Sequence record: PZ445431.1
DNA length: 64,000 nucleotides
Reading direction: 5' to 3' (one strand)
DNA from: a phage
The first letter of the stretch is position 1, and the number at the start of each line of letters is the position of its first letter. Below the pieces are notes generated by a model. That model was not told the DNA's origin. It worked only from the letters and a program-made list of their open reading frames with translations, and ran no database searches. Shown in pieces: positions 16,888 to 64,000 of the stretch. The position numbers were made by a program, and so were the translations under genes.

Positions 16888-17770
16888 AGATTCATAAATT
16901 AGAGAACAGCGAGCCGATTACGCTGAGTGAGTTTAGTGATTCCTACTAGGATAGCTATTCCACTGAATAGAGTCGGTGAGTTTAGAATGATCACCTGTTA
17001 GAGTTCCGAGTCCAGTCCGGTATATCCGGCCAAGTGACTAGAGTAACGAATATAGGTTCGAGACTTCTTGTAAAACTCGGGAGCTGTCCCGAAATCTCGT
17101 AAACTCTTCTCTAGTTTATGTTAGTGGGGTGTCGAACTGACTTATGTGATAACACTGCCGTCCTAGTATAAACGGTAATATCAAACCGTAACTGGTGGAA
17201 GATGCAGGTTCGAATCCTGCGGTCGGAAAGAATCAGATAACTCGGGCTTATACCGGATAAGCATTCGCTGCTGGAGTACATACTATGACGGTTCAGGAGG
17301 TACGCCACCTGATCAGTATTAGGTTAGAATCGAAACAGCTAAACCACGAGGAAACCTGACGGCCTCAACCAAACTCGGAACTCGGGATCACTGCCTAGTG
17401 TGTGCCCCGTTTAACCTGAGACTAGGCATCCAGCTTCGCATCGAAAATCGGAGGTGCGATTCTAACAGACCGCGTGAATATGAGAGTGGGAAACGCTGAC
17501 ATGAGAGATGTCACTAATGGTGCCCAATAGTACAGGTAATTCGCGATAATTCCTGTTGAGCGGCAGCAGTAGGCTGGGAGTCATGACCTAAGCCTAACCG
17601 AGTTCTTCACATACGGAGAACATAACCACAAAGTCACCCTGACTTAAACTGGAAGATATTGTCTGACGGAAGGGCTGCAGAGCTTAATCTGAGGGGGCTG
17701 ACCCTACCTACCATCGGGTATCTTTAAGAGCTTTTTCGAGAGTTCTTAAAAATACCTAACAAAAGGAATC
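16888..17770 (+). ncRNA. candidate structured non-coding RNA region (no ORF >=60 aa on the sense strand)
   Basis: About 0.88 kb directly downstream of consensus promoter 16859-16887; contains tRNA-like T-arm GCAGGTTCGAATCCTGC (17204-17220) without a pairing acceptor stem and several short hairpins. Confidence 0.35.
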
Positions 17771-25926: not shown

Positions 25927-26000
25927 ACATCCATAGCTCAATTGGTTAGAGCTACCGCCTCTTAAGCGGTAGGTTCTAGGTTCAAGTCCTTCATTGGAGA
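25927..26000 (+). tRNA. tRNA-Lys-like (anticodon CUU); acceptor/T stems imperfect
   Basis: Canonical D-arm GCTCAATTGGTTAGAGC and anticodon arm ACCGC-CTCTTAA-GCGGT; acceptor pairing poor by eye. Confidence 0.4.
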
Positions 26001-26010
26001 CCAAACAATT

Positions 26011-26108: not shown

Positions 26109-26273
26109 ATGAAATTATTTCGTTTAAAAGTAAGTGATTTACGTTCTAGCAAAGATCGTAAGAAGTATCCACTAGCCCATTACGGTAAAGATGAAAACGA
26201 AGTGATGGCGGAATTTGGTATTAATCACCCTTACTTAAAAGTTTATTCTATTAAGGAAGTCTATGCTAATTAA
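26109..26273 (+). CDS. hypothetical small protein (54 aa)
   Basis: AAGGA RBS then ATG; not in track (<60 aa). Confidence 0.4.
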   Translation: MKLFRLKVSDLRSSKDRKKYPLAHYGKDENEVMAEFGINHPYLKVYSIKEVYAN

Positions 26274-26736
26274 TAAAGTTTTAGCTGCCTTAAACCTTCC
26301 TGATAACTTCATTATAGATGATAAGCTCATAAGAGCTTATATGAGCAAATATAACGAAATTTCAGGTAAAGAAGGTAAGTTAAAAACTTCAGAGTTTAGA
26401 TTCTGTTATCGAATGGCAGCCTTAAATCTCTTAAAATATAAAAGGGAGCATAAAATACCTATAACGGAAGGTTTTGTATATGTAATTGGTAATCCAGCAT
26501 GGCCAGGCATGTATAAAATAGGTATGACTATAGATGTGAATGAGAGGTTAACAAGTTATCAAACTTATTCACCTAATAGAGACTACAAGCTATACCATTT
26601 CAGATTTTCGTCGGATAAAAGACGTACAGAGAAAGAATTACATAATCTTCTTAAAGATTATAGAGTATCTGGAGAATGGTTTGAAGTACCTGTACTAGAT
26701 GCTTTTAAATTATTAGTAGAAAAATTGGATTGCTAG
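26263..26736 (+). CDS. T5orf172-domain (GIY-YIG-like) protein, putative homing endonuclease
   Basis: GFVYVIGNPAWPGMYKIGMTIDVNERL matches the T5orf172/GIY-YIG-like core; 3' end overlaps the next tRNA acceptor stem. Confidence 0.6.
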   Translation: MLINKVLAALNLPDNFIIDDKLIRAYMSKYNEISGKEGKLKTSEFRFCYRMAALNLLKYKREHKIPITEGFVYVIGNPAWPGMYKIGMTIDVNERLTSYQTYSPNRDYKLYHFRFSSDKRRTEKELHNLLKDYRVSGEWFEVPVLDAFKLLVEKLDC

Positions 26737-26801
26737 CTCAACTGGATAAGAGTAGCGGACCTTTAATCCGTCAGTTCTGGGTTCGAATCCCAGGCAATCC
26801 A
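26727..26801 (+). tRNA. tRNA, anticodon UUU by eye (Lys) with C at position 33
   Basis: Perfect acceptor GGATTGC/GCAATCC, T-arm CTGGG-TTCGAAT-CCCAG, encoded CCA. Confidence 0.55.
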
Positions 26802-26808
26802 CCAAATT

Positions 26809-26879
26809 GCTCGGTTAGTTTAATGGGAGAACCCCGTCTTTACACGGCGGTTGCGATAGTTCGATTCTATCACCGAGTA
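26809..26879 (+). tRNA. tRNA-like gene with apparent 6-nt anticodon loop (anticodon unresolved)
   Basis: Acceptor GCTCGGT/ACCGAGT, perfect T-arm GATAG-TTCGATT-CTATC, encoded CCA; only CCGT/ACGG pairs around loop CTTTAC. Confidence 0.45.
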
Positions 26880-26906
26880 CCACTCAACTAAAATAAGGAA
26901 TTGCAA

Positions 26907-27143
26907 ATGCAATTATCATCTAAAGTTCAAGGTTTCTTCGCACATGCAACAGCAGAATTTGCTATTAGCAAGGGTTGGGATTTTGAGCAAGAACTTTCTG
27001 AGTTCTATAAAGATATAGATATGAATACGCCATACATGGGACTCTCCACTGGTCAAGAGATCACAGAAGGCGATGTGTTCAAGGCAAGTCAAGGTGAGGT
27101 AACACCTAGTTTTGCCGCTTTTTTGGAGTGGCTTCACAATTAA
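26907..27143 (+). CDS. hypothetical protein (78 aa)
   Basis: AAGGAA RBS; second in-frame ATG chosen for spacing. Confidence 0.5.
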   Translation: MQLSSKVQGFFAHATAEFAISKGWDFEQELSEFYKDIDMNTPYMGLSTGQEITEGDVFKASQGEVTPSFAAFLEWLHN

Positions 27144-27252
27144 AGAAGAAGCTCCAGATGATGATGTATTTATGCAAAGCATGCACTCTGGGAGTTCTGA
27201 TATGTTATTTGTTAAAGATGTACGACATATCCAAGAAGTGGTAAAAACGCAG

Positions 27253-27281
27253 TTGCTTAATGCTTAATTTCTTGTTATAAT
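27253..27281 (+). promoter_or_regulatory. T5-type early promoter driving ORF-free/tRNA-like segment
   Basis: TTGCTT 27253-27258, TATAAT 27276-27281. Confidence 0.7.
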
Positions 27282-27284
27282 ATT

Positions 27285-27615
27285 TATATAAATTGATGCG
27301 AAAATAGCTGCCTAGATACCAGGTGTATGACGTCTACACTAGCAGAGCTACCGAAAAAGAGATCCTCAGGATAAACGTCGTAGCAAAATTAGTCTGGTAT
27401 CCATTAATTTAGTTCACTAAGGTATTAGCTCGACCTAGGACTGGCTGCCAAAAAGCACGATCCCTACGATTTGGGAGAAGTTCTAGATTAGTCCACTAGA
27501 TTCAGCGGCAACTGAATAGTGTATCGGGTTTGTGAAGAGCAGCTATTCTCTACTGGCTAATGTCTGAGGTTAGTACGCACACCGAGCTAATAGCCTTAGT
27601 AAACTTAAAGAATTT
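27285..27615 (+). ncRNA. candidate non-coding RNA (ORF-free segment downstream of consensus promoter)
   Basis: About 330 nt with no ORF >=60 aa after promoter 27253-27281; long-range complement GATACCAG (27308) / CTGGTATC (27394) and hairpin ATTCAG-CGGCAA-CTGAAT. Confidence 0.35.
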
Positions 27616-27688
27616 GGGCGAATAGTGTCAGCGGGAGCACACCAGACTTGCAAGTCTGGTAGGGAGGGTTCGAGTCTCTCTTTGTCCA
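27616..27688 (+). tRNA. tRNA-like gene with non-canonical anticodon loop (6 or 8 nt around TTGCAA)
   Basis: Acceptor GGGCGAA/TTTGTCC (two G-U), D-stem GTGT/ACAC, stem CCAGAC/GTCTGG, T-arm GAGGG-TTCGAGT-CTCTC, encoded CCA. Confidence 0.45.
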
Positions 27689-27706
27689 CCAAATTAAAAA
27701 GAATGC

Positions 27707-27780
27707 GCGCGATTGACGGAATAGGTATACGTGTCAGCCTTAGAAGTTGAATTTTGAGGGTTCGAATCCCTTGTCGCGCA
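27707..27780 (+). tRNA. tRNA, anticodon UAG by eye (Leu-type anticodon on a short-variable-arm body)
   Basis: Perfect acceptor GCGCGAT/GTCGCGC, anticodon arm TCAGC-CTTAGAA-GTTGA, T-arm GAGGG-TTCGAAT-CCCTT, A73, encoded CCA. Confidence 0.55.
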
Positions 27781-27908
27781 CCAAATTTGATGGTCAGAGT
27801 AAATTAAACCTACTATCTCGGTTGAGCTGTTTTAATGGATTCGAATCCCAGCGAGGCGTAACTGCCTGGCGTGATAGAGGCATCATTCCACTAACATTGG
27901 AAAAACTA

Positions 27909-28139
27909 ATGAAACGAAAATTAAAAAAGTCTTATATAATTAAGATAAATAAGCTACGAAGTAGGGCAAAAGGATGGCCACTTCGAATATTAATTGCGGA
28001 TAACCATATTAGATACCATGCGGAACAACATCATTACAAACAGTGGGAGTCATACTGTCGCTCAAAAGCAGGTCGTTTAGATGGATCTTATGAGCTTCTA
28101 TTTGGTAAGAAGCCTACTAGATTAGCTTTAGGTAAGTAA
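27909..28139 (+). CDS. hypothetical basic protein (76 aa)
   Basis: Internal ATG of track ORF 27747..28139; the upstream part of that ORF overlaps tRNA-like sequence. Confidence 0.35.
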   Translation: MKRKLKKSYIIKINKLRSRAKGWPLRILIADNHIRYHAEQHHYKQWESYCRSKAGRLDGSYELLFGKKPTRLALGK

Positions 28140-28253: not shown

Positions 28254-28769
28254 ATGCTAACACAACAAGAATTAAAATCCGTGTTGTTATATAAACCAGA
28301 TACTGGAGAGTTTTTCTGGAAATATAGATCTGATTTAGATAGTCAATGGAATAGTAAATATGCTGGAACTAGGGCAGGATTTATTAATGAACTAGGCTAT
28401 TGGAAGATAACTCTAGGAAATACTAGCTGGTTAGCACATCGTCTAGCATTCTTATACATGACTGGGGAAATACCAGATCTAATTGACCACAAGGATCAAG
28501 ATAAGTCCAATACTAAATGGGATAACTTACGAATAGCCACTGTATCACAGAATCAGGCTAATGCTAAATTAAGGGTAGATAATACCTCTGGGTACAAAAA
28601 TGTAACTTGGCATAAGCAAAGAAATAAGTGGAAAGTAGAAGTACGTAAAGATGGCAAACTCCATTATGGTGGACTTTTTACAGAACTAGATAAAGCTGTA
28701 AATAAAGCTAATAATCTTAGACGTGAGTTATTCGGGGAATTTGCAGTATATGAAGAGTTTATGGGGTAG
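28254..28769 (+). CDS. HNH homing endonuclease with AP2-type DNA-binding domain
   Basis: Same architecture as 6957..7472 (ELK..LYKPDTG.F.W, IDHKDQDKSNTKWDNLR, AP2-like SGYKNVTWHK); stop lies inside the next tRNA acceptor stem. Confidence 0.8.
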   Translation: MLTQQELKSVLLYKPDTGEFFWKYRSDLDSQWNSKYAGTRAGFINELGYWKITLGNTSWLAHRLAFLYMTGEIPDLIDHKDQDKSNTKWDNLRIATVSQNQANAKLRVDNTSGYKNVTWHKQRNKWKVEVRKDGKLHYGGLFTELDKAVNKANNLRRELFGEFAVYEEFMG

Positions 28770-28856
28770 GTCAATCCAACGGCTGGCGCTGGACTCCGAC
28801 TTGAAATCGGTTGATCGTAGTGATACGGTGTAAGGGTTCGATCCCCTTACCTACCT
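28765..28856 (+). tRNA. tRNA-Ser (anticodon UGA), type II
   Basis: Perfect acceptor GGTAGGT/ACCTACC, anticodon loop CTTGAAA, long variable arm, T-arm AAGGG-TTCGATC-CCCTT, encoded CCA. Confidence 0.7.
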
Positions 28857-29191: not shown

Positions 29192-29312
29192 GATACATCA
29201 ATGGCTCAAAGTGTAACGGTGCTATTTGATGCTCTTGGCAAGACTTCCCCGACATGCGTTCGGGAGTAAGCTGCTAAGACTAGAGTAGAAGAGTTTCAAC
29301 AAGACAACGATA

Positions 29313-29384
29313 GCTCTTAAAGCATTGCTGGCGATGCAGTTGCCTTGTAAGCATCTGAACCGGGTTCGATTCCTAGTGGGAGCA
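29313..29384 (+). tRNA. tRNA-Thr (anticodon UGU)
   Basis: Acceptor GCTCTTA/TGGGAGC (two G-U), D-arm GCAT...ATGC, anticodon arm GTTGC-CTTGTAA-GCATC, T-loop TTCGATT, encoded CCA. Confidence 0.55.
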
Positions 29385-29403
29385 CCAAAATTAAAAAATT
29401 CAT

Positions 29404-29432
29404 TTGCCTTCTCTCTTATTTCTTGTTATTAT
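29404..29432 (+). promoter_or_regulatory. early promoter variant (TTGCCT-N17-TATTAT)
   Basis: -35 at 29404-29409, -10 at 29427-29432. Confidence 0.55.
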
Positions 29433-29462
29433 ATTTATATAAATTAATGAGAGGGAAACCAA

Positions 29463-33862: not shown

Positions 33863-33979
33863 AGAACTCGCGTAGGACCGAGTTGCGTCACCTGCAACTG
33901 TTACGGATAAGGGAGTCGTGCCCCTTTAGTGCGGTAAGTGGTGAGTTGGTCGCTGACCTCAACTTTAACTGGAGATATC

Positions 33980-34327
33980 ATGAGCTTTATTTTATTCAGT
34001 GTAGCAGCATGGTTTATTATTGGTTTAGGCTATGCTATTGCAGTTATTCGTCATCTGGATGAATATTCTGCTGAATGGTTTATTAAGTACCTACGTTTAG
34101 ACGATCGAGAACACGAGTTCGACAGTGCTGAGGAAAGACAGGCTGTCCAGTCAATGACTCCCAAAGAATGCTTGCTTTACATGCGTGTAATTGGTTTCTT
34201 TGGACTGTTGGTAGTGGGGCCGCTAGGTCTTACTATTGCTCCCTACAAAGAAGTTGTTGACGACATTAAACTATGGAGAACCGCTGGATCGCTACGTCGT
34301 GCTAGAGAATTAAGTAAACAAGAGTGA
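33980..34327 (+). CDS. hypothetical membrane protein (about 115 aa)
   Basis: Start at ATG 33980 after CTGGAGA; two predicted TM segments. Confidence 0.5.
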   Translation: MSFILFSVAAWFIIGLGYAIAVIRHLDEYSAEWFIKYLRLDDREHEFDSAEERQAVQSMTPKECLLYMRVIGFFGLLVVGPLGLTIAPYKEVVDDIKLWRTAGSLRRARELSKQE

Positions 34328-41576: not shown

Positions 41577-42088
41577 TGGCCGGTATTTCTCAGGAATACC
41601 TGAAGAGTAGACTAACCTATAATCCTGAAACATGGGAGTTTCGGTGGAAGCCTAACCCAAATGCTAGTAAAACATGGAATACTAGGTTTGCTGGTAAAGA
41701 AGCAGGTACTCTAAATAAAACTACCGGATATATCAATTTAACAATTGATGGGGTTAAGCATGGTGCACATAGAATGGCTTTCTTATACATGGAGGGCTAT
41801 TTACCTACTAAAGTGGATCACAAAGATACAATAAGAACAAATAATGCTTGGAGTAACCTTAGGGCTGCTGATAATGCTCAGAATACTTGGAATGCTGGTA
41901 TGAAAAGCTCCAATACTTCAGGATTTAAAGGTGTTTACTTAGATAAGCGTATAAATAAATATGTAGGTAGAGTTCGCTTTAGAGACAAAAGGTTCTCTAC
42001 TAAATATTATGAAAATGCTGAGGATGCAGCTAAAGAGTTGGAAATCCTTAGAGAACAGTTACATAAAGAATTTGCGAGGAATGAATAA
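41576..42088 (+). CDS. HNH homing endonuclease with AP2-type DNA-binding domain
   Basis: Same family as 6957, 28254, 39420; KVDHKDTIRTNNAWSNLR HNH core and AP2-like SGFKGVYLDK. Confidence 0.8.
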   Translation: MAGISQEYLKSRLTYNPETWEFRWKPNPNASKTWNTRFAGKEAGTLNKTTGYINLTIDGVKHGAHRMAFLYMEGYLPTKVDHKDTIRTNNAWSNLRAADNAQNTWNAGMKSSNTSGFKGVYLDKRINKYVGRVRFRDKRFSTKYYENAEDAAKELEILREQLHKEFARNE

Positions 42089-42686
42089 TGCGTGTTAAAT
42101 TCTGGTCGGATTTGCACTTAGACCACCCTGGAACTCTTCGCTTCCGTCCGTGGTTTAAGAATATGAAAGAACATGATGAATATATCCTAGATACTTTGTC
42201 CAAGCACATTGGCAAGCGTACTAAGCTCGTCTTGCTAGGGGATATTGCCGTGGGGCGTGAAGGGTTGGCTAAATTAAAGTCGGTTATCCACAATGTGCCT
42301 AACCAGTTAATCATGGGCAACCACGATGCTGAACGTCAGGGTCTGCATATTAAAGATCTTGTAGACGTTTATGATGATATTCAGGCTCTAGGTAAGCAAA
42401 CAGGTGGTGGCAAGAAGTTTTGGCTGTCACACTGTCACACTGTCCATTGCACGAAGCAGAACTTCGTGGTAAGCTAAACATTCACGGACATGTGCACACC
42501 AATTCTGTGCGCGACCCACGTTATATCAACATCTCTTTTGAGATGAGTAAGACTCCTATTCCTCTAGAAGATATTGTATCTGGCAAGTTCACAAGCTATG
42601 ATAGAGTAGTTAACTGCACTACTGGTGAAGTACTCCAAATCGATGAAGATGTGGCAGCAGTATTGAGGGGAGATATCAATGTTTGA
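42088..42686 (+). pseudogene. calcineurin-like metallophosphoesterase interrupted by a frameshift (8 bp tandem duplication)
   Basis: ORFs 42088..42477 (DLHLDH, GDIAVG, GNHD) and 42420..42686 (HGHVH) are two halves of one phosphoesterase; frames switch at CTGTCACA CTGTCACA (42424-42439); removing one copy restores ...FWLSHCPLHEAELRG... Confidence 0.65.
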
Positions 42687-46895: not shown

Positions 46896-47060
46896 ATGGA
46901 AACATTACTTCTTGTACTACTAGGCGGTTCACTCTTAACCATTCTAGGCTTGATAATTATATGTAGTCGCCTCAATGTTAAGAATCTAGAATTAGATAGT
47001 GAGAATCAGATTCTTAACCGAGAAATTAAACAACATAATACACAGCTCGTAAGCTGTTAG
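46896..47060 (+). CDS. possible small membrane-anchored protein (54 aa)
   Basis: ATG then hydrophobic N-terminus; not in track. Confidence 0.3.
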   Translation: METLLLVLLGGSLLTILGLIIICSRLNVKNLELDSENQILNREIKQHNTQLVSC

Positions 47061-47079
47061 ATAAACTGGAGAATAGATA

Positions 47080-47685
47080 ATGTTTACACAACAAACCATT
47101 AAAGTAGTTGCAGATCATGAACTCGACACATGGGATTACAGCTTTAAAGATCTGACTGCTACAGTACAGTTTAAATCTATGCAACTGTCGTTTTTGCACA
47201 TTGATCTTCAGGCTTGCAAAGAGTTTCAGGCTAAGCTCATGAATGCTCGTAAGATCTTTGGCACAGCTCGCATCCCGGCTGATAATCTGATTAATGCACT
47301 GATCGATGCAGGATACAAACTCGTGAAGACTGAAGTGAACCGCCCGAGTACTACAACTATTCCTCGTAATGACCCTTGGCATATTACTGCACTAACTAAT
47401 TCTGATAAAAGATTAATGTCGGATATGCACAATGTTCCGTGTGGTGGCGTGGTAAGCAATACGCAATCATATAAATTTGGGGAAACATCTAGCGTAGACG
47501 AGTGGAATAAAGCTGGCGTTGCAATGATGGGCTTTGCAAAAGATCGCGGAGCACAAGAAGACTCCGGAGTTTCTAGGAACTCATATACTATCCGTTTGAG
47601 CAATCCTAGAAAAGAGGGAGAGCTTGAAGAAATGTTAACGAAAGTATTCGAAGCTATTGATGCAGATAAAGCTAGAGGTCGTTAA
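47080..47685 (+). CDS. hypothetical protein (201 aa)
   Basis: ORF track; antisense ORFs judged spurious. Confidence 0.55.
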   Translation: MFTQQTIKVVADHELDTWDYSFKDLTATVQFKSMQLSFLHIDLQACKEFQAKLMNARKIFGTARIPADNLINALIDAGYKLVKTEVNRPSTTTIPRNDPWHITALTNSDKRLMSDMHNVPCGGVVSNTQSYKFGETSSVDEWNKAGVAMMGFAKDRGAQEDSGVSRNSYTIRLSNPRKEGELEEMLTKVFEAIDADKARGR

Positions 47686-49979: not shown

Positions 49980-50580
49980 TGTCGGATTTGCACATTACAT
50001 TTCTAGAAATTTATGGTCGGATTTGCACATTGATAGGAGTCTCCAAAGTTTTTAGGAACACTGAAAATAGCAGCATTATTTCGGGCCGAAGGCCCATATT
50101 TGCCTGAGTTTTTAGAGCCACAGGAATTTTCACTTGTCAAGCGATTTTGCCCCATTTTGCTAATAAAATTTCGCTTTATCTCCCCTAATCTCAATTCTAG
50201 CCAAAACATCCCGCATTATCCTCAAAAATGCAGCAAACCGGTGCTAAAGCACCATCACCGCTGCTCCTTCCGTAGTTCCTCCCAAAATCTCATCGGATTC
50301 GCACTTCTCCCCAAACTCACACAATCACACACCCTCTCATCGAAGTCACAAAAATCTTGTCGGATTTGCACACCTTAACACTTGTCGGATTTGCACATAC
50401 TCTAGTAAACCCAGCTGGATTGCATCGCAGTTGCGGATTGCTGGAGTTTTTAGGAAAATTCATTGTCGGATTTGCACACTATAAAAATTTTTCGGGTAGG
50501 ATTTGCACATTACCAAAAATTGTCGGATTCGCACATACACGCCAGCACGTAACCCATGGAGCAAATGTCGGATTTGCACA
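49980..50580. repeat. iteron array: about 9 direct copies of TGTCGGATTTGCACA (minor variants)
   Basis: Copies at about 49980, 50016, 50291, 50359, 50383, 50464, 50496, 50521, 50566, all same orientation, irregular spacing. Confidence 0.9.
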
Positions 50581-50599
50581 AAAGCGCAGGGCAATTTGC

Positions 50600-50755
50600 C
50601 CTGCCTGCCGAAATGCGAATGATAATGAGAATGATTCGCATTTGAGAAGTTGAATGCGAATGAGAACAGTTATCATTTGACTACCGGAATACGAATGAGA
50701 ATGATTTGCATTTAGGAAGGGAAACGCTAATAATAATGAGAATGACTCGCATTTA
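50600..50755. repeat. second iteron family AATGAGAATGA(T/C)T(C/T)GCATTT (3 full copies plus partial), each embedding short AATGCGAAT/ATTCGCATT inverted motifs
   Basis: Copies at about 50621, 50693, 50733 plus GCGAATGAGAACAG at 50664. Confidence 0.85.
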
Positions 50756-55831: not shown

Positions 55832-56017
55832 CGATAACTTGATAAAATTTGACGGTCGGCACTTACCATAATGTGCCCCGCCCCCTAACTGGGATATAGC
55901 GGCCCGCGTGGAGTTCTTTAAATTTATTATACTGGCGAGCGGATTATAATCTAATAGCGTTTCAACGTATCGAGGCGCTATTGTGGAATAATCCCCCAAT
56001 AAACCGGAGTATTAAAA

Positions 56018-56269
56018 ATGCAAAACGTTATTACCGCGCCGAAAGTAGGTCAATCTGTTTTCATTCCTTTTGTAACTAAAACGGATGAATTAACCGGAAA
56101 AGCCGAACGTATTAAAGGTGTGGCGCTTGATCCTTTCGATAAAATCGAAGCGGTATACGCGGAAACGGAACGGAGTAACAACGGCAAGCCAATTTATAAC
56201 GTTCGCGTTAAATCCGGCGACGTTGTAAAGATCATTCAGAAAGATGATAAATGGCAAGCTATTAGCTAA
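56018..56269 (+). CDS. hypothetical protein (83 aa)
   Basis: ORF with GGAG RBS. Confidence 0.55.
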   Translation: MQNVITAPKVGQSVFIPFVTKTDELTGKAERIKGVALDPFDKIEAVYAETERSNNGKPIYNVRVKSGDVVKIIQKDDKWQAIS

Positions 56270-56368
56270 TTAGTGCTAACTTTATATTCCCCTGAAATAT
56301 GGGGAATATATGGATTAACATTAGTTAATCATAATCCCTTAATTAATAATTGAATGGAGTATTAAATT

Positions 56369-56785
56369 ATGTCTAACGTTAAAACCGAAAAAGCCGCAAA
56401 ATTCGCATGGAATGAAGAAAACACTGAAAAAGCCGTTTCTATGTATTCTGAAATGGTCGCTAAAAGCGGAATTGAATTTGCTAACACTGACGGCTTAAAA
56501 GAAATCGCCGCCGCCGTTGGCGCGGCTTCTCCCGTGTCTGTTCGCTCAAAATTGACCAGCGCAAAAGCCTACCAGAAAAGCGATAAACCTCGCAAAGTTG
56601 GCGGTGGTAGCTCAATCCGTAAAGCTCACTATGTGCGCGTCATTGCTAAACATGCCATTGATAGCGGCATTGTAAAAGACGCCGACGATCTGGCAAGTCT
56701 GGAAAGCGCAAAATTGGAAACGCTGGACGCCGTAGCGCAATTGTTAGGCGTAGCGGAGGAAGTAAAACAGGCCGCAGGCGAATAA
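56369..56785 (+). CDS. hypothetical protein (138 aa)
   Basis: ORF with GGAG RBS. Confidence 0.55.
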   Translation: MSNVKTEKAAKFAWNEENTEKAVSMYSEMVAKSGIEFANTDGLKEIAAAVGAASPVSVRSKLTSAKAYQKSDKPRKVGGGSSIRKAHYVRVIAKHAIDSGIVKDADDLASLESAKLETLDAVAQLLGVAEEVKQAAGE

Positions 56786-56834
56786 ATTTAATCAGTGGGG
56801 AATAATCCCCACTATCCCTTAAAGGAGAATAATT

Positions 56835-57059
56835 TTGATCTTTTATCCTAGCGAAGCGTTTATTTTGGGCTTATTTATAGTTGCCGCCGCTTTTATTCTG
56901 AATTATACGCGGTCAATTCTGGCAATAATCGGAATTAATAACGTTTACGCCGCAAATAATTTCCGCAAAAACGCGAATATTCAAAAATATATGTCAATCA
57001 TCTTTCTTACAATTGGCATTGTATTTGGCTTTTGTTCTAGTTTAACGCCGATTAATTAA
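56835..57059 (+). CDS. hypothetical membrane protein (74 aa)
   Basis: Two hydrophobic helices; AAGGAGAA RBS. Confidence 0.5.
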   Translation: MIFYPSEAFILGLFIVAAAFILNYTRSILAIIGINNVYAANNFRKNANIQKYMSIIFLTIGIVFGFCSSLTPIN

Positions 57060-57171
57060 ATGTTGCAAATTATAACGCCTTTAAAAGTCCTCACTTCAGG
57101 CAAGGCGTTATATTTGGCAATATTGCCAGCTTTAAAATGTTTTAAATCCCTTTAATGGAGTTACTTAACTT

Positions 57172-58836
57172 ATGAATATTTCCGCAGAAAAACAGTCTCA
57201 GATCAATAAACTTGCCGCCGACTTTAATTTCTACGGTAAGCGTTTACGCGCTACCAAACTTGAAGTTTGCGACGATATTTCAAAAGCTGTATATGATACG
57301 CCGAAACATTCAACGGCAATTTGTGACTGGTTGGAAGCAAATAAGCCAGCGAAACCGAAGGCAGCGAAAGCTGTAAAAGCCATTAAAAACGATGATCGCC
57401 CCGAAGCGGCGGGGATCGTTTCTAGCACGGTTGAGCAATGGGAAGTTAAATCCGGTCGCCGTTTTATTCTAACGTCGATTCAAAATAATACTTTCCCGCA
57501 CAAAAACTTTTTGAAAGCGCTTGAGCAATACGCTAGTTATTATGGCGCTGAATTGCTTGTTAGCAAATTCATTTACAACAAAAACGGATTTCAGAATGGG
57601 GAAGGCGGCGAAAAAATCAAATATGATCCCGCATTTGATAAATATATTTGTGAGAAAAACGTATTTTTAAATAATCGCCGCTTTGCTTTCATGGCTGAAA
57701 TTAACGTATTACCAACGGCAGATTATCCGCTTTCAGGATTCGCAGAAACTGCCACCGCTTTAAATATTGAAGGTCTGGCAATTGGTCACGCAAAAATTAC
57801 CGCTGAAAGTGTGCCAGCGTTAAAAGGTGAAGTAGTGCGCCGTATGTACTCCACCGGAACGGCTACGCTTAAAAACTACATTCAGCAGAAAGCAGGTCAA
57901 AAAGCTGAGGCGCTGCATAATTACGGCGCTTTGCTGGTAGAATTTGACGACGACGGCGAATTTTTTGTTCGCCAGCTTGAGACAATGGATGAAAGCGGGA
58001 TGTTTTATGATTTGAATATTTGCGCTATACCAACCGGATGTTTCAAAACATCTGATCATGTTTTAGGTTTGCAATATGGCGATATTCACGCCGAAAAATT
58101 AGATGATGATTGCGCTGTTGCATCATGGGTGGGCGAAAATAGCTTGCTTGATATTCTTAAACCAAAATATCAGTTTATCCATGATGTGCATGATTTTACA
58201 TCGCGTAACCATCATAATCGCGCCTCTGGTGTATTCCTAGCTAAACAGTACGCCGCCGGACGTGATAAAGTTATTGATGATCTTATCGATACTGGACGTG
58301 TATTAGAATCAATGGAGCGCGATTTTTCTCAAACAATCATCGTGGAATCCAATCATGATTTGGCGTTATCCCGTTGGCTTGACGATCGCAACGCTAATAT
58401 TAAAGACGATCCCGCAAACGCCGAACTGTATCACAGCCTAAACGCCGCTATTTATGCAGCTATTGCAAAACAAGATGATACCTTTAACGTATTGGATTAC
58501 GCGCTTAGAAACGTTGCAGGTTGCGAATTTAACGCTATTTTTCTGACTACTGACCAATCTTTCAAGATTGCAGGAATTGAATGCGGCGTACACGGTCACA
58601 ATGGCATTAACGGCAGTCGGGGCAATCCTAAGCAGTTTAAGAAACTTGGACGCCTCAACACTGGCCATACTCACACGGCGAGCATTTACGGTGGCGTGTA
58701 TACCGCTGGCGTTGCTGGTAGTCTCGATATGGGTTACAACGTGGGCGCGTCAAGCTGGACGCAAACGCATTTAATTACCTATGCAAACGGGCAACGTACT
58801 TTGATTGATTTCAAAAACGGTAAATTCTTTGCATAG
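57172..58836 (+). CDS. A1: A1-like pre-early protein (metallophosphoesterase-type)
   Basis: 554 aa with GDIHAE, ESNHD, GVHGHNG, NTGHTHT phosphoesterase-like motifs; size and position next to a dmp-like gene match T5 A1. Confidence 0.6.
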   Translation: MNISAEKQSQINKLAADFNFYGKRLRATKLEVCDDISKAVYDTPKHSTAICDWLEANKPAKPKAAKAVKAIKNDDRPEAAGIVSSTVEQWEVKSGRRFILTSIQNNTFPHKNFLKALEQYASYYGAELLVSKFIYNKNGFQNGEGGEKIKYDPAFDKYICEKNVFLNNRRFAFMAEINVLPTADYPLSGFAETATALNIEGLAIGHAKITAESVPALKGEVVRRMYSTGTATLKNYIQQKAGQKAEALHNYGALLVEFDDDGEFFVRQLETMDESGMFYDLNICAIPTGCFKTSDHVLGLQYGDIHAEKLDDDCAVASWVGENSLLDILKPKYQFIHDVHDFTSRNHHNRASGVFLAKQYAAGRDKVIDDLIDTGRVLESMERDFSQTIIVESNHDLALSRWLDDRNANIKDDPANAELYHSLNAAIYAAIAKQDDTFNVLDYALRNVAGCEFNAIFLTTDQSFKIAGIECGVHGHNGINGSRGNPKQFKKLGRLNTGHTHTASIYGGVYTAGVAGSLDMGYNVGASSWTQTHLITYANGQRTLIDFKNGKFFA

Positions 58837-58888
58837 TTAAATTTAATCGGCGGTTGAAATATACCGCCATTAATAAAAGGTTTATTAA

Positions 58889-59146
58889 ATGAATATTGTA
58901 TTACCTAAAACGCTGGATAAAAAGCAGTATATAACGCCGGATGATATGGAGTGCGGCAAGGTATACCAATTCGATTATATGTTGGCTAGTCCGACAAATA
59001 CAGGTTGTATTATTGCAGTTGATACCCGCGATAATGACGTATTAACGTTTAATGATTATTCTGACTTTATGGAATGGTTAGATGATCAAAGTATCACTAA
59101 TAATGGCGAATTAACGCCCTATCAATTAACGCTCACAATTAAATAG
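58889..59146 (+). CDS. hypothetical acidic protein (85 aa)
   Basis: ORF track. Confidence 0.5.
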   Translation: MNIVLPKTLDKKQYITPDDMECGKVYQFDYMLASPTNTGCIIAVDTRDNDVLTFNDYSDFMEWLDDQSITNNGELTPYQLTLTIK

Positions 59147-59184
59147 TTTAATCCCGTAAATATAAATAATCAGGAGTTATAAAC

Positions 59185-59577
59185 ATGAAACAACAAAATA
59201 TTCCTTTTGACGCTGCAAAATCTTCCATCGTTCTAGTTTATTCTAATGGTGAACGTTATCACGTCGAGGCGGGGCAAGTTAATTTTGATTTGCTGAATTA
59301 TAACGACGCTTTGCAGGTTACTACCTTTGCTTATGATACCGGCAAAGTGGCAAGCCATACGAAAGCAAAAGGCGTTTACGCTGATACTTTGACAGTGCAA
59401 ACAATTATTATTGATGCGCTTAAATCCGGTCTAGCGTTTGCAGTTGTTAAGCCGTGTCCGGTCTGCAATCCAGAAGCTAGCGCGATGGTTTACATTTGCG
59501 CGGGAATCCGTTCTAGTGTATCCGGTGAAGATCTTAGCTTTATTGGTGACGCGCTAGCGTACGGCCTCACTAATTAA
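59185..59577 (+). CDS. hypothetical pre-early protein (130 aa), possible A2 counterpart
   Basis: Position downstream of A1 and size; no motif-level support. Confidence 0.3.
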   Translation: MKQQNIPFDAAKSSIVLVYSNGERYHVEAGQVNFDLLNYNDALQVTTFAYDTGKVASHTKAKGVYADTLTVQTIIIDALKSGLAFAVVKPCPVCNPEASAMVYICAGIRSSVSGEDLSFIGDALAYGLTN

Positions 59578-59665
59578 TAGTTAATTGAACATTGCCAGCT
59601 AATCTAATATAATTAGCTGGCAAGATTGAATTAACCCTAAACCCCTTAAATGGAGAATGTAGCAA

Positions 59666-60400
59666 ATGAATCAAGTTAATATGAATATTACCCGCGCTTT
59701 CCCGCATATTTCCCGCGTTATGATTTGGGATTTAGACGGGACAATCATTAATTCAATGCACCGTGTAGCGCCTTGTTTTGATGATAACGGAAATTTAAAT
59801 TTAAATAAGTATTCCCGCGAAGCCTGCAAACATGATTTAATTATGCAGGATTCTTTATTGCCGTTGGTTGAATATATGCGCCAATGTATGAATGATGCAA
59901 ATACTTTAAATATTATTTGTACCGCGCGCCTTATGTCTAAAAGCGATTACTTTTATTTGCGTAAACAAGGCTTGCGAGGGCGCGGAAATAGCAATATCCG
60001 CGTATTCTCCCGCGATACATTACACAAATACTTTGAAGCGGATAAGGTTAGCGAAATATACCACAGCAAAGACGCTGTATACAAAAGCTATTACTTTGAA
60101 CTATTTAAACAGCTATATCCGAACGCTGATTTTACGATGATTGATGATCATAAAGGCGTATTATCGGCGGCGGCAAGTGCTGGATTTAAAACGTTGGATG
60201 CTCAAGCCGTTAACGATATCCTATCAATCGGCGTAACATTGATCGGTGAAACCTTTATTGATGAATCGCTTGATGATGATAACGATTATCAATTCCTAGC
60301 CGAACGTTTAAAAATGTGTTGGGAAGGTATGACCGAGGAAGAACGCGCGGAATATAGTACCACTCCGCAACAATTCATTGATAAATTAAAAGTTGCCTAA
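59666..60400 (+). CDS. dmp: 5'-deoxyribonucleotidase (HAD-superfamily phosphatase), Dmp-like
   Basis: 244 aa with HAD motif I MIWDLDGTIIN; size and position match T5 dmp. Confidence 0.65.
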   Translation: MNQVNMNITRAFPHISRVMIWDLDGTIINSMHRVAPCFDDNGNLNLNKYSREACKHDLIMQDSLLPLVEYMRQCMNDANTLNIICTARLMSKSDYFYLRKQGLRGRGNSNIRVFSRDTLHKYFEADKVSEIYHSKDAVYKSYYFELFKQLYPNADFTMIDDHKGVLSAAASAGFKTLDAQAVNDILSIGVTLIGETFIDESLDDDNDYQFLAERLKMCWEGMTEEERAEYSTTPQQFIDKLKVA

Positions 60401-60415
60401 CAATTAAAAATAAAA

Positions 60416-60450
60416 TAGTCACACTGTGTAATGATAACATGGTGTGACTA
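60416..60450 (+). other. strong hairpin (9 bp stem) immediately after the dmp-like gene
   Basis: TAGTCACAC ... GTGTGACTA with 17 nt loop; no T tract. Confidence 0.5.
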
Positions 60451-60563
60451 TTAGCTTGCTAAGTACCGGGGCGGTAATGAGACTCATTCTCATCTAGGGA
60501 ACCTCTGGGCACACCTTCATGTGTAATCTTATGAGATTTCGAGAATTGGTAATTAGCGCTAAC

Positions 60564-60809
60564 TTAGGAGGAACACCGGTCTACCGGCTTGTATCCTGAT
60601 TCTGACATACGAAATCTCCTCCGCGATGCCCGAGATCCATCCGACCACTCTCGCTCAAACTCCTCCCGTTTCTCCGCAAACTTCCGCTCCCTTTCCGAAA
60701 GCTCCCGCGATACTCCCGCAATATATTCACGATGCTTATTAATCGCCCCGAGTGTTCCGAAGATTCCCGCAAGCACCCCGATAATGAAGATAGCCACAAA
60801 ACTAAACAT
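60564..60809 (-). CDS. hypothetical membrane-anchored protein (81 aa)
   Basis: N-terminal TM helix then Arg/Glu-rich tail. Confidence 0.45.
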   Translation of the reverse strand: MFSFVAIFIIGVLAGIFGTLGAINKHREYIAGVSRELSERERKFAEKREEFEREWSDGSRASRRRFRMSESGYKPVDRCSS

Positions 60810-60912
60810 TACTTGTCTCCCCGCAGCTTACGTTCGATACGAGCTAAGTGGTTATCTAAGATGCACTGTCCGATAATTACCACAACTAGTAAAGCAATAA
60901 TTACTACTTCCA

Positions 60913-61098
60913 TTATAACCACCCCGCCATAGCTGCTAACCAAAAGAGTACAAAGATAAAGAATAACACAGTCCCGAATCCGAAACTATTTATCCAACTT
61001 TCGTACACTTCCCCGCGTCTGTTCTTTCTTCTGTTGTCGTCTGACATCTCTTTGCTTCTCCTGTAGTCTTGGTATTTGGAATACCCTAGCAATTGCAC
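60913..61098 (-). CDS. hypothetical tail-anchored membrane protein (61 aa)
   Basis: C-terminal TM helix; overlapping alternative ORF 60986..61177 not chosen. Confidence 0.35.
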   Translation of the reverse strand: MQLLGYSKYQDYRRSKEMSDDNRRKNRRGEVYESWINSFGFGTVLFFIFVLFWLAAMAGWL

Positions 61099-61376
61099 GA
61101 ACCATTATGACTGTCCCGATAAGATCCATTACTTCATCAAAGCCGGATTCTTCTAGTAAGAAGGATGTTCCCATCACGTCTTCTATTGTATCTTCTATGA
61201 CGTCTTGAATGATTTCATCAATTGCATCATGTATTGCTTTTTATTCCTGGGATTTATTTCAAAGTTAACAGGTTCCTGAAAGGACTTTTCTTCATCTTGC
61301 ATTGTGTTTGCTACCTGTACCTCATCCCAGAAATAAAAATTTTTGTTTACTTCGAGATCTTTTTACTTTATACTAA

Positions 61377-61643
61377 TTACAAGTGACCAGATTGTTCTAG
61401 TTTAAATTTGCAATCACCATATTTGAGATCAAACTGTGACAAATCCCACCACCCAAACTTAGTGCGTAACTGAGTTTTAGGGAATCGGTAGCCCACAGTA
61501 CGTGCTTCTCGAATATCTAAAGCGTAGTGTTCTTCACCAACATGACCATAAGACTTCACATATGCCTTACAAAATGGCTCGGGAGCTGGCACACAACCCG
61601 TCAACACTACTGCTGCAACTACGATGGCTAGTAACTTTTTCAT
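61377..61643 (-). CDS. llp: lipoprotein, lytic-conversion (Llp-like) candidate
   Basis: Signal peptide with lipobox MKKLLAIVVAAVVLTGC; divergently adjacent to the pb5-like gene, as llp/oad in T5. Confidence 0.65.
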   Translation of the reverse strand: MKKLLAIVVAAVVLTGCVPAPEPFCKAYVKSYGHVGEEHYALDIREARTVGYRFPKTQLRTKFGWWDLSQFDLKYGDCKFKLEQSGHL

Positions 61644-61726
61644 AATCGTTCCTCTGTTTAATTTATAAATATATTATAGCAAAATAGAGGGATCTAAGCA
61701 AATACATTTTTAAAGAAGGAGATTGT

Positions 61727-63508: not shown

Positions 63509-63518
63509 AGGAGGATAT

Positions 63519-64000
63519 ATGGCAAATGATGTATTAGTTCCCGATCTCATGTCTCCCGAAGGCATGGATGTTATTGAAGCCTATTTACAGTGCGGTAGTG
63601 ATGTTCCTGCCGCCGCTCGTAGTCTTGGAATGTCCGAGATTGCATTCCGTGATATAATGAATCGTGGGGAAGTTAAAAACTATCTCAACGATATCTTTAT
63701 GGAAAGTGGCTTCCGTAATCGTGACCGCTTATTCGGAGTTCTTGACGAAGTTATCAAGCGTAAGCTGGAAGAACTTGAAGAAACTGGCATGGGTTCTGAC
63801 CAGGATATCATGGATATTCTCTGGAAGGCGCACAAGATGAAGATGGAAGAAATGAAAATGATGGTAGAACTGGAGAAAGTGAAGGCAGCAGCCCGTACTC
63901 CGGCTAACCAGACTAATATTCAGAATAATATTATTGCTGGAAGTGGTGACGAAAACTATATGAATCTTATTACCGCTCTAGCAGGAGGAGGTAAGAGATA
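63519..64000 (+). CDS. putative terminase small subunit-like protein, partial (3' end beyond window)
   Basis: AGGAGGA RBS; N-terminal helix-turn-helix-like segment ([21 protein letters not shown]) and charged coiled-coil region. Confidence 0.4.

What the first reader, a model, noticed from the sequence alone, without database searches (positions are those of the whole stretch)
26809..27688. tRNA-like genes with non-canonical anticodon loops
Two genes with good acceptor and T arms and encoded CCA have anticodon hairpins that cannot be drawn with a 7-nt loop: 26809-26879 (CCGT/ACGG stem, loop CTTTAC) and 27616-27688 (CCAGAC/GTCTGG stem, loop TTGCAA, or an 8-nt loop). Loops of 6 or 8 nt are characteristic of frameshift-suppressor or otherwise specialised tRNAs.
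Basis: seen in the sequence. Interest (0 to 1): 0.5.

Follow-up and report, generated by a model that had tools for sequence, protein, structure and literature searches.

The report
Mutated alanine tRNA in T5-like phage
One of the two flagged genes is an ordinary valine tRNA; the other is the well-known phage T5 alanine tRNA carrying a one-base insertion, seen only in this phage, that turns its anticodon arm into a perfect palindrome and is most likely a recent mutational accident, not a specialised tRNA.

Summary
The window is Escherichia phage TrudiRoth (Bas30), a T5-like phage; the finding lies in its tRNA gene array.

Gene 1 (26809-26882) is a canonical tRNA-Val(UAC). It has a 5-bp anticodon stem CCGUC/GGCGG and the 7-nt loop UUUACAC.

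Gene 2 (27616-27691) really cannot form a 5-bp stem with a 7-nt loop. ARAGORN calls it "tRNA-???" with anticodon tgca. It is the orthologue of T5 tRNA-Ala(UGC) with one extra G (27654) between A38 and U39, plus a C-to-T change in the T stem (27677).

- The insertion occurs only in TrudiRoth among 54 phage records.
- It is the single one of 229 possible 1-nt insertions that makes the arm a perfect 20-nt palindrome.
- Two other phages (phA11, phC11) carry the reciprocal, also palindrome-perfecting, deletion of C32.

This is the signature of quasipalindrome template-switch mutation. The tRNA is probably crippled.

One coincidence remains. The adjacent conserved ORF carries a private +1 T insertion directly after an Ala codon (GCU-U), which a +1-frameshifting Ala tRNA could in principle rescue. 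I rate that reading about 5%. A second, non-rescuable frameshift elsewhere in the window shows that this phage tolerates broken accessory genes.

The parts
26809..26882 (+). Canonical tRNA-Val(UAC), orthologue of T5 tRNAV(UAC) (T5t12). Acceptor GCUCGGU/ACCGAGU (G1.U72), D arm GUUU/GAAC, anticodon stem CCGUC/GGCGG, loop UUUACAC, 4-nt variable loop, T arm GAUAG/CUAUC, A73, encoded CCA.
   Evidence: ARAGORN; Rfam RF00005 at 57.8 bits over the full model. It is identical in 8 of 10 relatives, and the T5 C30 variant supports the canonical stem. Annotated tRNA-Val in GenBank and in T5.
27616..27691 (+). tRNA-Ala(UGC) of the T5 type (orthologue of T5t11) with an expanded anticodon loop. G3.U70 and A73 are intact. 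Anticodon arm is CCAGA-CUUGCAAG-UCUGG. CCA is encoded.
   Evidence: ARAGORN 'tRNA-??? (tgca)'; Rfam 40.2 bits with a loop insert; alignment to T5, TrudiGerster, SelmaRatti, phA11 and AAS21; annotated tRNA-Ala (GCA) in MZ501109.
27654..27654 (+). The inserted G, between A38 and U39, opposite C32. Private to TrudiRoth.
   Evidence: Alignment. All other records with this gene are 75 nt, or 74 nt in phA11/phC11. The six IMG/VR matches all have 7-nt loops.
27641..27660 (.). Perfect 20-nt DNA palindrome ACCAGACTTGCAAGTCTGGT created by the insertion. In wild type it is a quasipalindrome whose only asymmetry is C32.
   Evidence: Enumeration of all 1-nt indels; reverse-complement check; RNAfold of the arm gives -8.8 versus -4.0 kcal/mol for wild type.
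27677..27677 (+). Second private change in the same tRNA: C62 to U, making G52.U62 in the T stem.
   Evidence: Alignment.
26907..27267 (+). Conserved 119-aa phage gene (phrog_7572, function unknown), split here by a +1 frameshift. The N-terminal part 26907-27143 is in frame 0. The C-terminal part continues in frame +1 to the stop at 27265-27267.
   Evidence: Translations of 8 phages; alignment; PHROG match over 1-114 of the frame-corrected protein; tblastn frame split.
27119..27124 (+). T6 run (T5 in all relatives), the site of the +1 insertion. Frame-0 codons are GCC GCU UUU UUG. Reading GCU-U as one codon would restore ...AAFWSGFTIK... exactly.
   Evidence: Only TrudiRoth matches an 81-nt probe over its full length; all others are 1 nt shorter.
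27423..27595 (+). Homologue of T5 'RNA2H' (stable RNA of unknown function), lying between promoter P13b and tRNA-Ala. Places tRNA-Ala in a P13b-RNA2H-tRNA-Ala-tRNA-Leu unit by homology.
   Evidence: T5 annotation; near-invariant alignment block.

Best explanation
Gene 1 is a normal valine tRNA. Gene 2 is the T5-family alanine tRNA gene (anticodon UGC) that recently acquired a single G between A38 and U39.

Origin (inferred). The wild-type anticodon arm, A-CCAGA-C-TTGCAA-TCTGG-T, is a quasipalindrome in which only C32 lacks a partner. During DNA synthesis the nascent strand folded back and copied the other arm (intramolecular template switch), adding the G that pairs with C32. This may have happened during recombinational repair in this homing-endonuclease-rich, mosaic region.

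Consequence (inferred). The tRNA keeps the alanine identity set (G3.U70, A73), which AlaRS reads without looking at the anticodon, so it is probably still charged with alanine. Its anticodon arm, however, can now pair C32-G and U33-A38, burying the U-turn and leaving only UGCA unpaired. Ordinary decoding of GCN codons is therefore probably impaired, and any residual activity could be error-prone (+1 shifting, or reading in the neighbouring register).

Why it persists. Individual tRNA genes are dispensable in these phages, so the allele is tolerated as a private, probably slightly deleterious or neutral, mutation. It is not an evolved specialised tRNA.
For: Shown:
- Identity of the window: 100% match to phage TrudiRoth.
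- Gene 1 is canonical.
- Gene 2 equals T5 tRNA-Ala(UGC) plus one G plus one T-stem transition.
- The insertion is found in TrudiRoth only, among 54 phage records with this gene. All 6 IMG/VR copies have 7-nt loops and there was no metagenome hit.
- About 170 tRNAs in 11 related loci all have normal loops.
- Of 229 distinct single-base insertions in the 75-nt wild-type gene, exactly one creates a long perfect palindrome (20 nt), and it is the observed one. Of 55 distinct deletions, exactly one does (18 nt), and it is the one in phA11/phC11, from a different genus.
- The arm hairpin is stabilised from -4.0 to -8.8 kcal/mol with a UGCA tetraloop.
- The Rfam score drops from 54.9 to 40.2 bits.
- tRNA content varies widely among close relatives: 29 in Shin27, 26 in PMBT22, 21 called here. 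Four unrelated tRNA-Ala(UGC) gene types occupy this locus. So single tRNA genes are expendable.
- The same genome carries other disabling mutations in accessory genes.

From the literature: quasipalindrome mutations make imperfect inverted repeats perfect by template switching, and such sites are hotspots, first seen in phage T4 rIIB (PMC7202029).
Against: - No expression, charging or decoding data exist for this allele.
- The related 'type B' phage tRNA-Ala gene has the same CUUGCAA loop and an equally quasipalindromic arm. It shows neither palindrome-perfecting indel in about 170 near-identical records. The hotspot is therefore not strong, and purifying selection normally removes such alleles.
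- 8-nt loops can be compatible with function: yeast mitochondrial tRNA-Thr1 reads triplets (PMC3113583), and SufJ binds the A site well (PMC4238358).
- The adjacent +1 frameshift at an Ala codon is an unexplained coincidence under this reading.
Confidence: 0.72

Rival explanations
1. Neutral variant. Despite the 8-nt loop, the tRNA still works as an ordinary triplet-reading tRNA-Ala for GCA/GCG/GCU. Modification and the ribosome keep the loop open.
For: The cloverleaf, G3.U70, A73 and CCA are intact and the gene still passes the Rfam threshold. Natural and mutant 8-nt-loop tRNAs can form normal three-base codon-anticodon pairs in the A site (SufJ structures, PMC4238358; yeast mitochondrial tRNA-Thr1, PMC3113583).
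Against: The new C32-G Watson-Crick pair plus U33-A38 more than doubles the arm's stability and removes the U-turn nucleotide from the loop. No other phage keeps this form. The same gene also carries a second private change, which fits relaxed constraint.
Confidence: 0.12
2. Frameshift mutation and suppressor pair. The 8-nt-loop Ala tRNA reads GCU-U (or GCN-N generally) as one alanine codon, SufJ-like. It thereby restores the conserved 119-aa protein, whose gene 470 nt upstream carries a +1 T insertion immediately after GCU.
For: - Both changes are private to TrudiRoth and lie about 530 nt apart.
- The +1 insertion sits directly 3' of Ala codons GCC GCU, so a four-base read GCU-U gives the wild-type sequence AAFWSGF exactly.
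- Only 2 real-gene frameshifts were found in about 110 genes compared.
- SufJ shows that an extra base at the stem-loop junction, away from the anticodon, can give XYZ-N decoding without pairing to the fourth base (PMC4238358).
- AlaRS ignores the anticodon loop, and Ala-derived quadruplet tRNAs can be made (PMC9094753).
Against: - The palindrome-perfecting nature of the insertion, and its reciprocal twin in phA11, explain its origin without selection.
- Reversion of T6 to T5 would be far easier than evolving a suppressor.
- The gene is absent from T5, so it is dispensable.
- The other frameshift (an 8-bp duplication) is not rescuable and is tolerated.
- The Watson-Crick four-base anticodons would be UGCA or UUGC (codons UGCA, GCAA), not GCUU.
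- The inserted G probably closes the loop rather than widening it.
- tRNA-Phe slippage on the U-run could by itself make the frameshift leaky.
Confidence: 0.05
3. Sequencing or assembly artefact. The extra G (and the extra T) are not in the phage DNA.
For: There is a single isolate and a single deposited sequence. Palindromes and homopolymers are classic trouble spots. The window itself differs from the GenBank record by a 979-bp collapse between two repeated tRNA-Lys genes, so assembly problems do occur at this locus.
Against: The genome was sequenced on Illumina NextSeq at 50-100x coverage (PMC8594841). The G is not in a homopolymer, and T6 is short for Illumina errors. The GenBank/RefSeq record and this differently assembled window agree at both sites. 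The 8-bp duplication elsewhere is clearly a real mutation type.
Confidence: 0.06
4. Register-shifted missense tRNA. Counting from the 3' side of the stem, the loop reads U32 U33 G34 C35 A36 A37 G38 with C as a 31.5 bulge. That would be an alanine-charged tRNA with anticodon GCA, reading cysteine codons UGC/UGU (or UGCA as a quadruplet).
For: The sequence allows it: U33 and A37 are correctly placed in this register, and ARAGORN's 4-base call tgca spans both registers. From my own knowledge: Curran and Yarus 1987 showed that 8-nt-loop tRNAs can use alternative stacked registers.
Against: There is no supporting data. It would be harmful, with no obvious benefit. The arguments for a private mutation apply here as above.
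Confidence: 0.03

Closest known systems
Phage T5 tRNA-Ala(UGC), gene T5t11 (NC_005859 31714-31788)
   Same: Same gene: identical acceptor, D, anticodon-stem and variable regions. Same position, after the RNA2H stable RNA and before tRNA-Leu(UAG). G3.U70, A73 and encoded CCA are shared.
   Different: TrudiRoth has +G between A38 and U39, giving an 8-nt loop, and C62U. T5 and about 45 other records have the normal 7-nt loop CUUGCAA.
Salmonella frameshift suppressor tRNA SufJ (tRNA-Thr3 with C31.5)
   Same: One extra nucleotide at the junction of anticodon stem and loop, distal from the anticodon. This gives an 8-nt loop and alters the 32-38 pair (PMC4238358).
   Different: SufJ's extra base is on the 5' side and forms C31.5.A38; here it is on the 3' side and can form a Watson-Crick C32-G pair that shortens the loop. 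SufJ was selected genetically and shown to read ACC-N; no function is shown here.
Quasipalindrome-associated template-switch mutations (T4 rIIB, yeast CYC1, E. coli thyA hotspot)
   Same: A 1-nt change that converts an imperfect inverted repeat into a perfect one, templated by the opposite arm and recurring independently (PMC7202029).
   Different: Here the quasipalindrome is the anticodon arm of a tRNA gene, and the events are seen as natural alleles in two phage lineages, not in a reporter assay.
Salmonella phages phA11/phC11 'tRNA-OTHER'
   Same: Same T5-type tRNA-Ala gene with the reciprocal palindrome-perfecting change: deletion of C32, giving arm CCAGATTGCAATCTGG and a 6-nt loop. ARAGORN calls it 'tRNA-??? 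(gc)'.
   Different: Deletion instead of insertion; different genus (Tequintavirus).
Yeast mitochondrial tRNA-Thr1 with 8-nt anticodon loop
   Same: A natural tRNA with an 8-nt anticodon loop (PMC3113583).
   Different: That one is conserved, reads CUN triplets and is part of a code reassignment. The TrudiRoth allele is private and unconserved.

Membership tests
Canonical elongator tRNA (Rfam RF00005), gene 1 | Cloverleaf with 7-bp acceptor stem, 5-bp anticodon stem, 7-nt loop with U33 and purine 37, and a T loop UUCGAUU | tested here: met
   Rfam 57.8 bits over the full model; ARAGORN Val(tac); manual partition sums to 74 nt.
Canonical elongator tRNA (Rfam RF00005), gene 2 | 7-nt anticodon loop closed by a 5-bp stem | tested here: not met
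   The loop is 8 nt (CUUGCAAG), or 6 nt with a 6-bp stem. The Rfam alignment needs an insertion, and ARAGORN gives a 4-base anticodon.
Canonical elongator tRNA (Rfam RF00005), gene 2 | Remaining cloverleaf (acceptor, D and T arms) and a score above the curated threshold | tested here: met
   40.2 bits against a gathering threshold of 29.
tRNA-Ala (AlaRS substrate) | G3.U70 wobble pair in the acceptor stem, A73 discriminator | tested here: met
   GGGCGAA...UUUGUCC-A-CCA gives G3 opposite U70 and A73. That G3.U70 is the major AlaRS determinant comes from established knowledge, not from a test here.
tRNA-Ala (AlaRS substrate) | Actual aminoacylation with alanine | not testable with these tools
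   Needs an acid-gel northern or an in vitro charging assay.
Frameshift-suppressor tRNA (suf class) | Extra nucleotide in the anticodon loop relative to its parent tRNA | tested here: met
   +G relative to T5 and about 45 other orthologues.
Frameshift-suppressor tRNA (suf class) | Demonstrated restoration of reading frame at a +1 site read by that tRNA | not testable with these tools
   A candidate site exists (GCU-U at 27117-27120), but there are no expression or proteomic data.
Specialised or recoding tRNA maintained by selection | Conservation of the unusual loop across related genomes | tested here: not met
   Private to one genome among 54 records. It is absent from IMG/VR and from the metagenome scan.
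Quasipalindrome-associated template-switch mutation | The change makes an imperfect inverted repeat perfect and is templated by the opposite arm | tested here: met
   It is the unique palindrome-perfecting insertion among 229 possible.
Quasipalindrome-associated template-switch mutation | Independent recurrence at the same site (hotspot behaviour) | tested here: inconclusive
   The reciprocal -C32 allele occurs in phA11/phC11. But there are no such alleles in about 170 copies of the similarly quasipalindromic type B tRNA-Ala.

The most novel reading that the evidence does not exclude
A naturally occurring frameshift-mutation and frameshift-suppressor pair in a lytic phage. The 8-nt-loop alanine tRNA (a mirror image of SufJ, with the extra base at the 3' stem-loop junction) reads GCU-U as alanine. 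It would thereby rescue the +1 T insertion in the neighbouring conserved gene (phrog_7572). Both mutations may have arisen together during one error-prone repair event.
Probability: 0.05. Interest if true: 0.8.

Novelty: new member of a known kind. Interest (0 to 1): 0.3.

Why it matters
As it stands the finding is mostly a clean-up. One flagged tRNA is ordinary, and the other is a mutated copy of a long-known T5 tRNA that GenBank labels simply as tRNA-Ala.

Two points have some wider value.

- The anticodon arm of a tRNA gene can behave as a quasipalindromic mutation site. Here both the +1 and the -1 palindrome-perfecting alleles are seen in nature. This gives a concrete route by which expanded or contracted anticodon loops (the raw material of frameshift suppressors) arise spontaneously. 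It also warns annotators that such 'odd' phage tRNAs may be fresh lesions.
- TrudiRoth (Bas30) is a widely distributed BASEL reference phage. It would offer a ready-made natural test case of whether a 3'-junction insertion makes an alanine tRNA shift frame, with a built-in candidate target next door.

Tried and rejected
- Scanned IMG/VR and JGI metagenome contigs for the tRNA-Ala arm with 6-8-nt loops. Only six 7-nt-loop copies from known isolates turned up, and nothing in metagenomes.
- Looked up the truncated 78-aa ORF product by exact identity in public assemblies, hoping for an independent assembly. Only the GenBank assembly itself was found.
- Tested whether the similarly quasipalindromic type B phage tRNA-Ala shows the same +G or -C alleles. 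None among about 170 close records.
- Considered recombination between the tandem type A and type B tRNA-Ala genes as the source of the extra G. Rejected, because a crossover in the shared CTTGCAA would give a hybrid stem, not a +1.
- Considered that T6 creates a U UUU UUG slippery site. It would give -1, which leads into the non-conserved frame (the one GenBank annotates as bas30_0123), not the conserved +1 frame.
- Checked whether the second frameshift (8-bp duplication) could be rescued by one +1 event. It cannot: it needs -1 or two +1 events.
- tblastn frame-split candidates at 29298-29436, 33876-34059, 47044-47298 and 50037-50676 were dismissed. They are ORFs overlapping tRNAs, unannotated or antisense ORFs, or divergent regions.
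- The simple promoter/terminator scan of 26700-28000 gave nothing above the shuffled expectation.

Full report
**Provenance.** The region 26700-27900 matches Escherichia phage TrudiRoth (Bas30, MZ501109/NC_105117; Demerecviridae, Epseptimavirus) at 100% identity. The finding lies in the tRNA gene array typical of T5-like phages. ARAGORN finds 21 tRNA genes between 18292 and 30220, all on the + strand, and Rfam finds 21 matches to the tRNA model. BASEL phages were sequenced on Illumina NextSeq at 50-100x coverage, and their tRNAs were called with tRNAscan-SE (PMC8594841).

**Gene 1, 26809-26882.**
- ARAGORN calls tRNA-Val, anticodon UAC.
- The Rfam tRNA model aligns it end to end at 57.8 bits with no insertion in the anticodon loop.
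- The partition is: acceptor GCUCGGU, UA, D arm GUUU-AAUGGGA-GAAC, C26, anticodon stem CCGUC, loop UUUACAC, GGCGG, variable UUGC, T arm GAUAG-UUCGAUU-CUAUC, ACCGAGU, A73, CCA. It sums to 74 nt.
But it destroys U33/A37 and the D arm.
- Comparative data speak against it.
- The gene is identical in eight of ten relatives examined and is annotated tRNA-Val(UAC) in T5.
- So this half of the finding is not confirmed.

**Gene 2, 27616-27691.**
- With the conserved 5-bp stem CCAGA/UCUGG the loop is CUUGCAAG, 8 nt.
- ARAGORN reports 'tRNA-???' with a four-base anticodon tgca, and the Rfam alignment needs an insertion in the loop.
- A BLAST of the 76 nt finds 54 phage records. Only the two TrudiRoth records are identical. 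About 45 others, including three T5 records annotated tRNA-Ala(UGC), are 75 nt long at 96-97% identity.
- The alignment shows exactly two differences from T5: an extra G between A38 and U39 (window 27654), and C62 to U in the T stem (27677, giving G52.U62).
- The acceptor stem carries G3.U70 with A73, the alanine identity set, so the gene is the T5t11 orthologue.
- The Rfam score falls from 54.9 bits (T5) to 40.2 bits.
- A gapped-pattern scan allowing 6-8-nt loops found six copies in IMG/VR, all with 7-nt loops, and none in the metagenome collection.
- About 170 tRNAs in 11 related loci all have ordinary loops.
- The unusual loop is therefore a private allele, not a conserved feature.

**Origin of the insertion.**
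- The mutant arm with its flanking bases, ACCAGACTTGCAAGTCTGGT (27641-27660), is a perfect 20-nt palindrome.
- The wild-type arm is a quasipalindrome. UUGCAA (U33-A38) is self-complementary, the stem supplies the outer arms, and only C32 has no partner.
- I enumerated all single-base changes of the 75-nt wild-type gene. Of 229 distinct insertions, exactly one produces a long perfect palindrome, and it is the TrudiRoth allele. Of 55 distinct deletions, exactly one does, and it is deletion of C32.
- That deletion is what Salmonella phages phA11 and phC11 (Tequintavirus) carry. It is annotated 'tRNA-OTHER', and ARAGORN calls it 'tRNA-??? (gc)'.
- Two lineages, each with the one palindrome-perfecting indel, is the signature of quasipalindrome-associated template-switch mutagenesis. 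In that process the nascent strand copies the opposite arm and makes the repeat perfect (PMC7202029).
- As a caveat, the unrelated 'type B' phage tRNA-Ala has the same loop and a similar quasipalindromic arm. It shows neither allele in about 170 close records. The site is therefore not a very strong hotspot, and such alleles are normally purged.

**Likely consequence.**
- RNAfold closes the mutant arm as a 7-bp stem (8 bp in the whole tRNA) with a UGCA tetraloop, at -8.8 kcal/mol against -4.0 for the wild-type arm.
- C32-G and U33-A38 pairing would remove the U-turn nucleotide from the loop.
- AlaRS does not read the anticodon, so charging is probably retained. This is inferred from the G3.U70 rule, not tested.
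- I infer that normal GCN decoding is impaired.
- The host supplies tRNA-Ala. The phage tRNA set is highly variable: 29 genes in Shin27, 26 in PMBT22, 21 called here. Four unrelated tRNA-Ala(UGC) gene types occupy this locus in different phages. Loss of one tRNA is therefore tolerable.

**The coincidence next door.**
- The conserved ORF between tRNA-Val and tRNA-Ala is 119 aa, belongs to phrog_7572 of unknown function, and is present in 232 records. In TrudiRoth it is split.
- All seven relatives examined have GCC GC-TTTTT-GG, whereas TrudiRoth has six T (27119-27124).
- An 81-nt probe shows the extra T is private.
- The conserved C-terminal part continues in the +1 frame to 27267. The GenBank CDS bas30_0123 is in the wrong frame.
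- The insertion lies directly after the Ala codon GCU. Reading GCU-U as one codon would regenerate the wild-type sequence exactly.
- SufJ shows that an extra base at the stem-loop junction can give XYZ-N decoding without pairing to the fourth base (PMC4238358). A natural mutation-suppressor pair is therefore conceivable.

**Weighing the suppressor reading.** I compared all ORFs of at least 45 aa from about 49 kb of Shin27 and of PMBT22 with the window by tblastn. Two real genes are frameshifted in TrudiRoth. One is this ORF. The other is a 197-aa phosphoesterase homologue, broken by an 8-bp tandem duplication (CTGTCACA, 42424-42439) that a single +1 event cannot rescue. Arguments against the suppressor reading:
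- This phage carries uncompensated lesions in accessory genes.
- T6-to-T5 reversion would be much easier than evolving a suppressor.
- The ORF is absent from T5, so it is dispensable.
- The tRNA change has a mutational explanation that needs no selection.
- The fully paired four-base anticodons would read UGCA or GCAA, not GCUU.
- tRNA-Phe slippage on the U-run could by itself make the frameshift leaky.

I put the suppressor reading at about 5%. A cheaper explanation for the clustering is inferred, not shown: one episode of error-prone recombinational repair. The region is mosaic and is flanked by putative homing endonuclease genes (T5orf172/MUG113 at 26263-26736, HNH_3 at 28254-28769). Double-strand-break repair is reported to raise both quasipalindrome and homopolymer frameshift mutations in yeast (abstract of 10.1101/2023.08.09.552703).

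**Artefact?** This is unlikely but not excluded. The platform was Illumina at 50-100x coverage and the G is not in a homopolymer. The window is assembled differently from GenBank: it lacks 979 bp between two tRNA-Lys(CUU) copies and runs past the record's end. Yet it agrees with the record at both sites.

**Verdict.** The interpretation as specialised tRNAs is not supported for gene 1. For gene 2 it is supported only as a structural resemblance. Gene 2 is best described as a fresh, palindrome-perfecting insertion allele of the T5-type tRNA-Ala(UGC), probably hypomorphic. Interest is modest (0.3). The low-probability suppressor-pair reading would be worth a simple reporter experiment because the phage is a widely available reference strain.

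Noticed in passing
window 25928-26003 (junction within 25934-25990): The window lacks 979 bp that the GenBank record has (about record 75982-76960, carrying tRNA-Gly(GCC) and three small ORFs). The two flanking tRNA-Lys(CUU) copies share a 57-nt identical core and are fused here into one chimeric tRNA-Lys. Its 5' acceptor strand (ACATCCA) comes from copy 1 and its 3' strand (TTGGAGA) from copy 2, so the acceptor stem is mismatched. This is either a real deletion variant or an assembly collapse at the repeat.
   Followed up: partly
window 42424-42439 (gene about 42085-42683, + strand): An 8-bp tandem duplication (CTGTCACA CTGTCACA) frameshifts the 197-aa phosphoesterase-like gene, which is intact in Shin27 and PMBT22. 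This is a second disabled accessory gene in this phage.
   Followed up: yes
window 27112-27267 versus 27128-27244: GenBank CDS bas30_0123 (window 27129-27245) is in a non-conserved frame. The conserved C-terminal half of the split phrog_7572 gene is the +1-frame ORF ending at 27267.
   Followed up: yes
window 27707-27783: tRNA-Leu(UAG) here is only 77 nt with a 5-nt variable loop (class I size). The T5 orthologue is 85 nt and the Shin27/PMBT22 one 81 nt, both with a long variable arm. The short form also occurs in S130, SP01 and NBSal005. The corresponding gene is annotated 'tRNA-Pseudo-TAG' in Yersinia phage phiR2-01. Whether LeuRS charges it is unclear.
   Followed up: partly
window 27423-27595, and 27305-27398: A near-invariant homologue of T5 'RNA2H' (stable RNA of unknown function) lies just upstream of tRNA-Ala. 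TrudiRoth and SelmaRatti carry an extra 94-nt block (27305-27398) between the P13b-like promoter and this RNA, which T5 and TrudiGerster lack. Region 27300-27615 folds with z = -2.4.
   Followed up: partly
window 28765-28855: tRNA-Ser(UGA), annotated in GenBank, is missed by ARAGORN and by the Rfam tRNA model at gathering threshold. It appears only as a sub-threshold tRNA-Sec-model hit (38.3 bits). Its 5' end overlaps the stop region of the HNH endonuclease ORF 28254-28769, which is inserted between the two Ser tRNAs relative to T5.
   Followed up: no
window 17157-17228: A borderline tRNA-model hit (29.3 bits, just at threshold) that ARAGORN does not call. The surrounding 17115-17323 shows an indel or frame break relative to PMBT22.
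   Followed up: no
locus between tRNA-Val and tRNA-Leu in L002, L003, L014-L017, L019, L020: Four unrelated tRNA-Ala(UGC) gene types (75, 76, 79 and 74 nt), singly or in pairs, occupy the same locus in different T5-like phages. All have G3.U70. This is a striking cassette-like replacement of isoacceptor genes.
   Followed up: partly
window about 63500-64000: With the offsets found, the window runs about 480 nt past the end of the 114,488-bp linear GenBank record, and TrudiRoth is not the full-length top hit for 56000-64000. The window therefore appears to come from a differently permuted or assembled version of the genome.
   Followed up: partly
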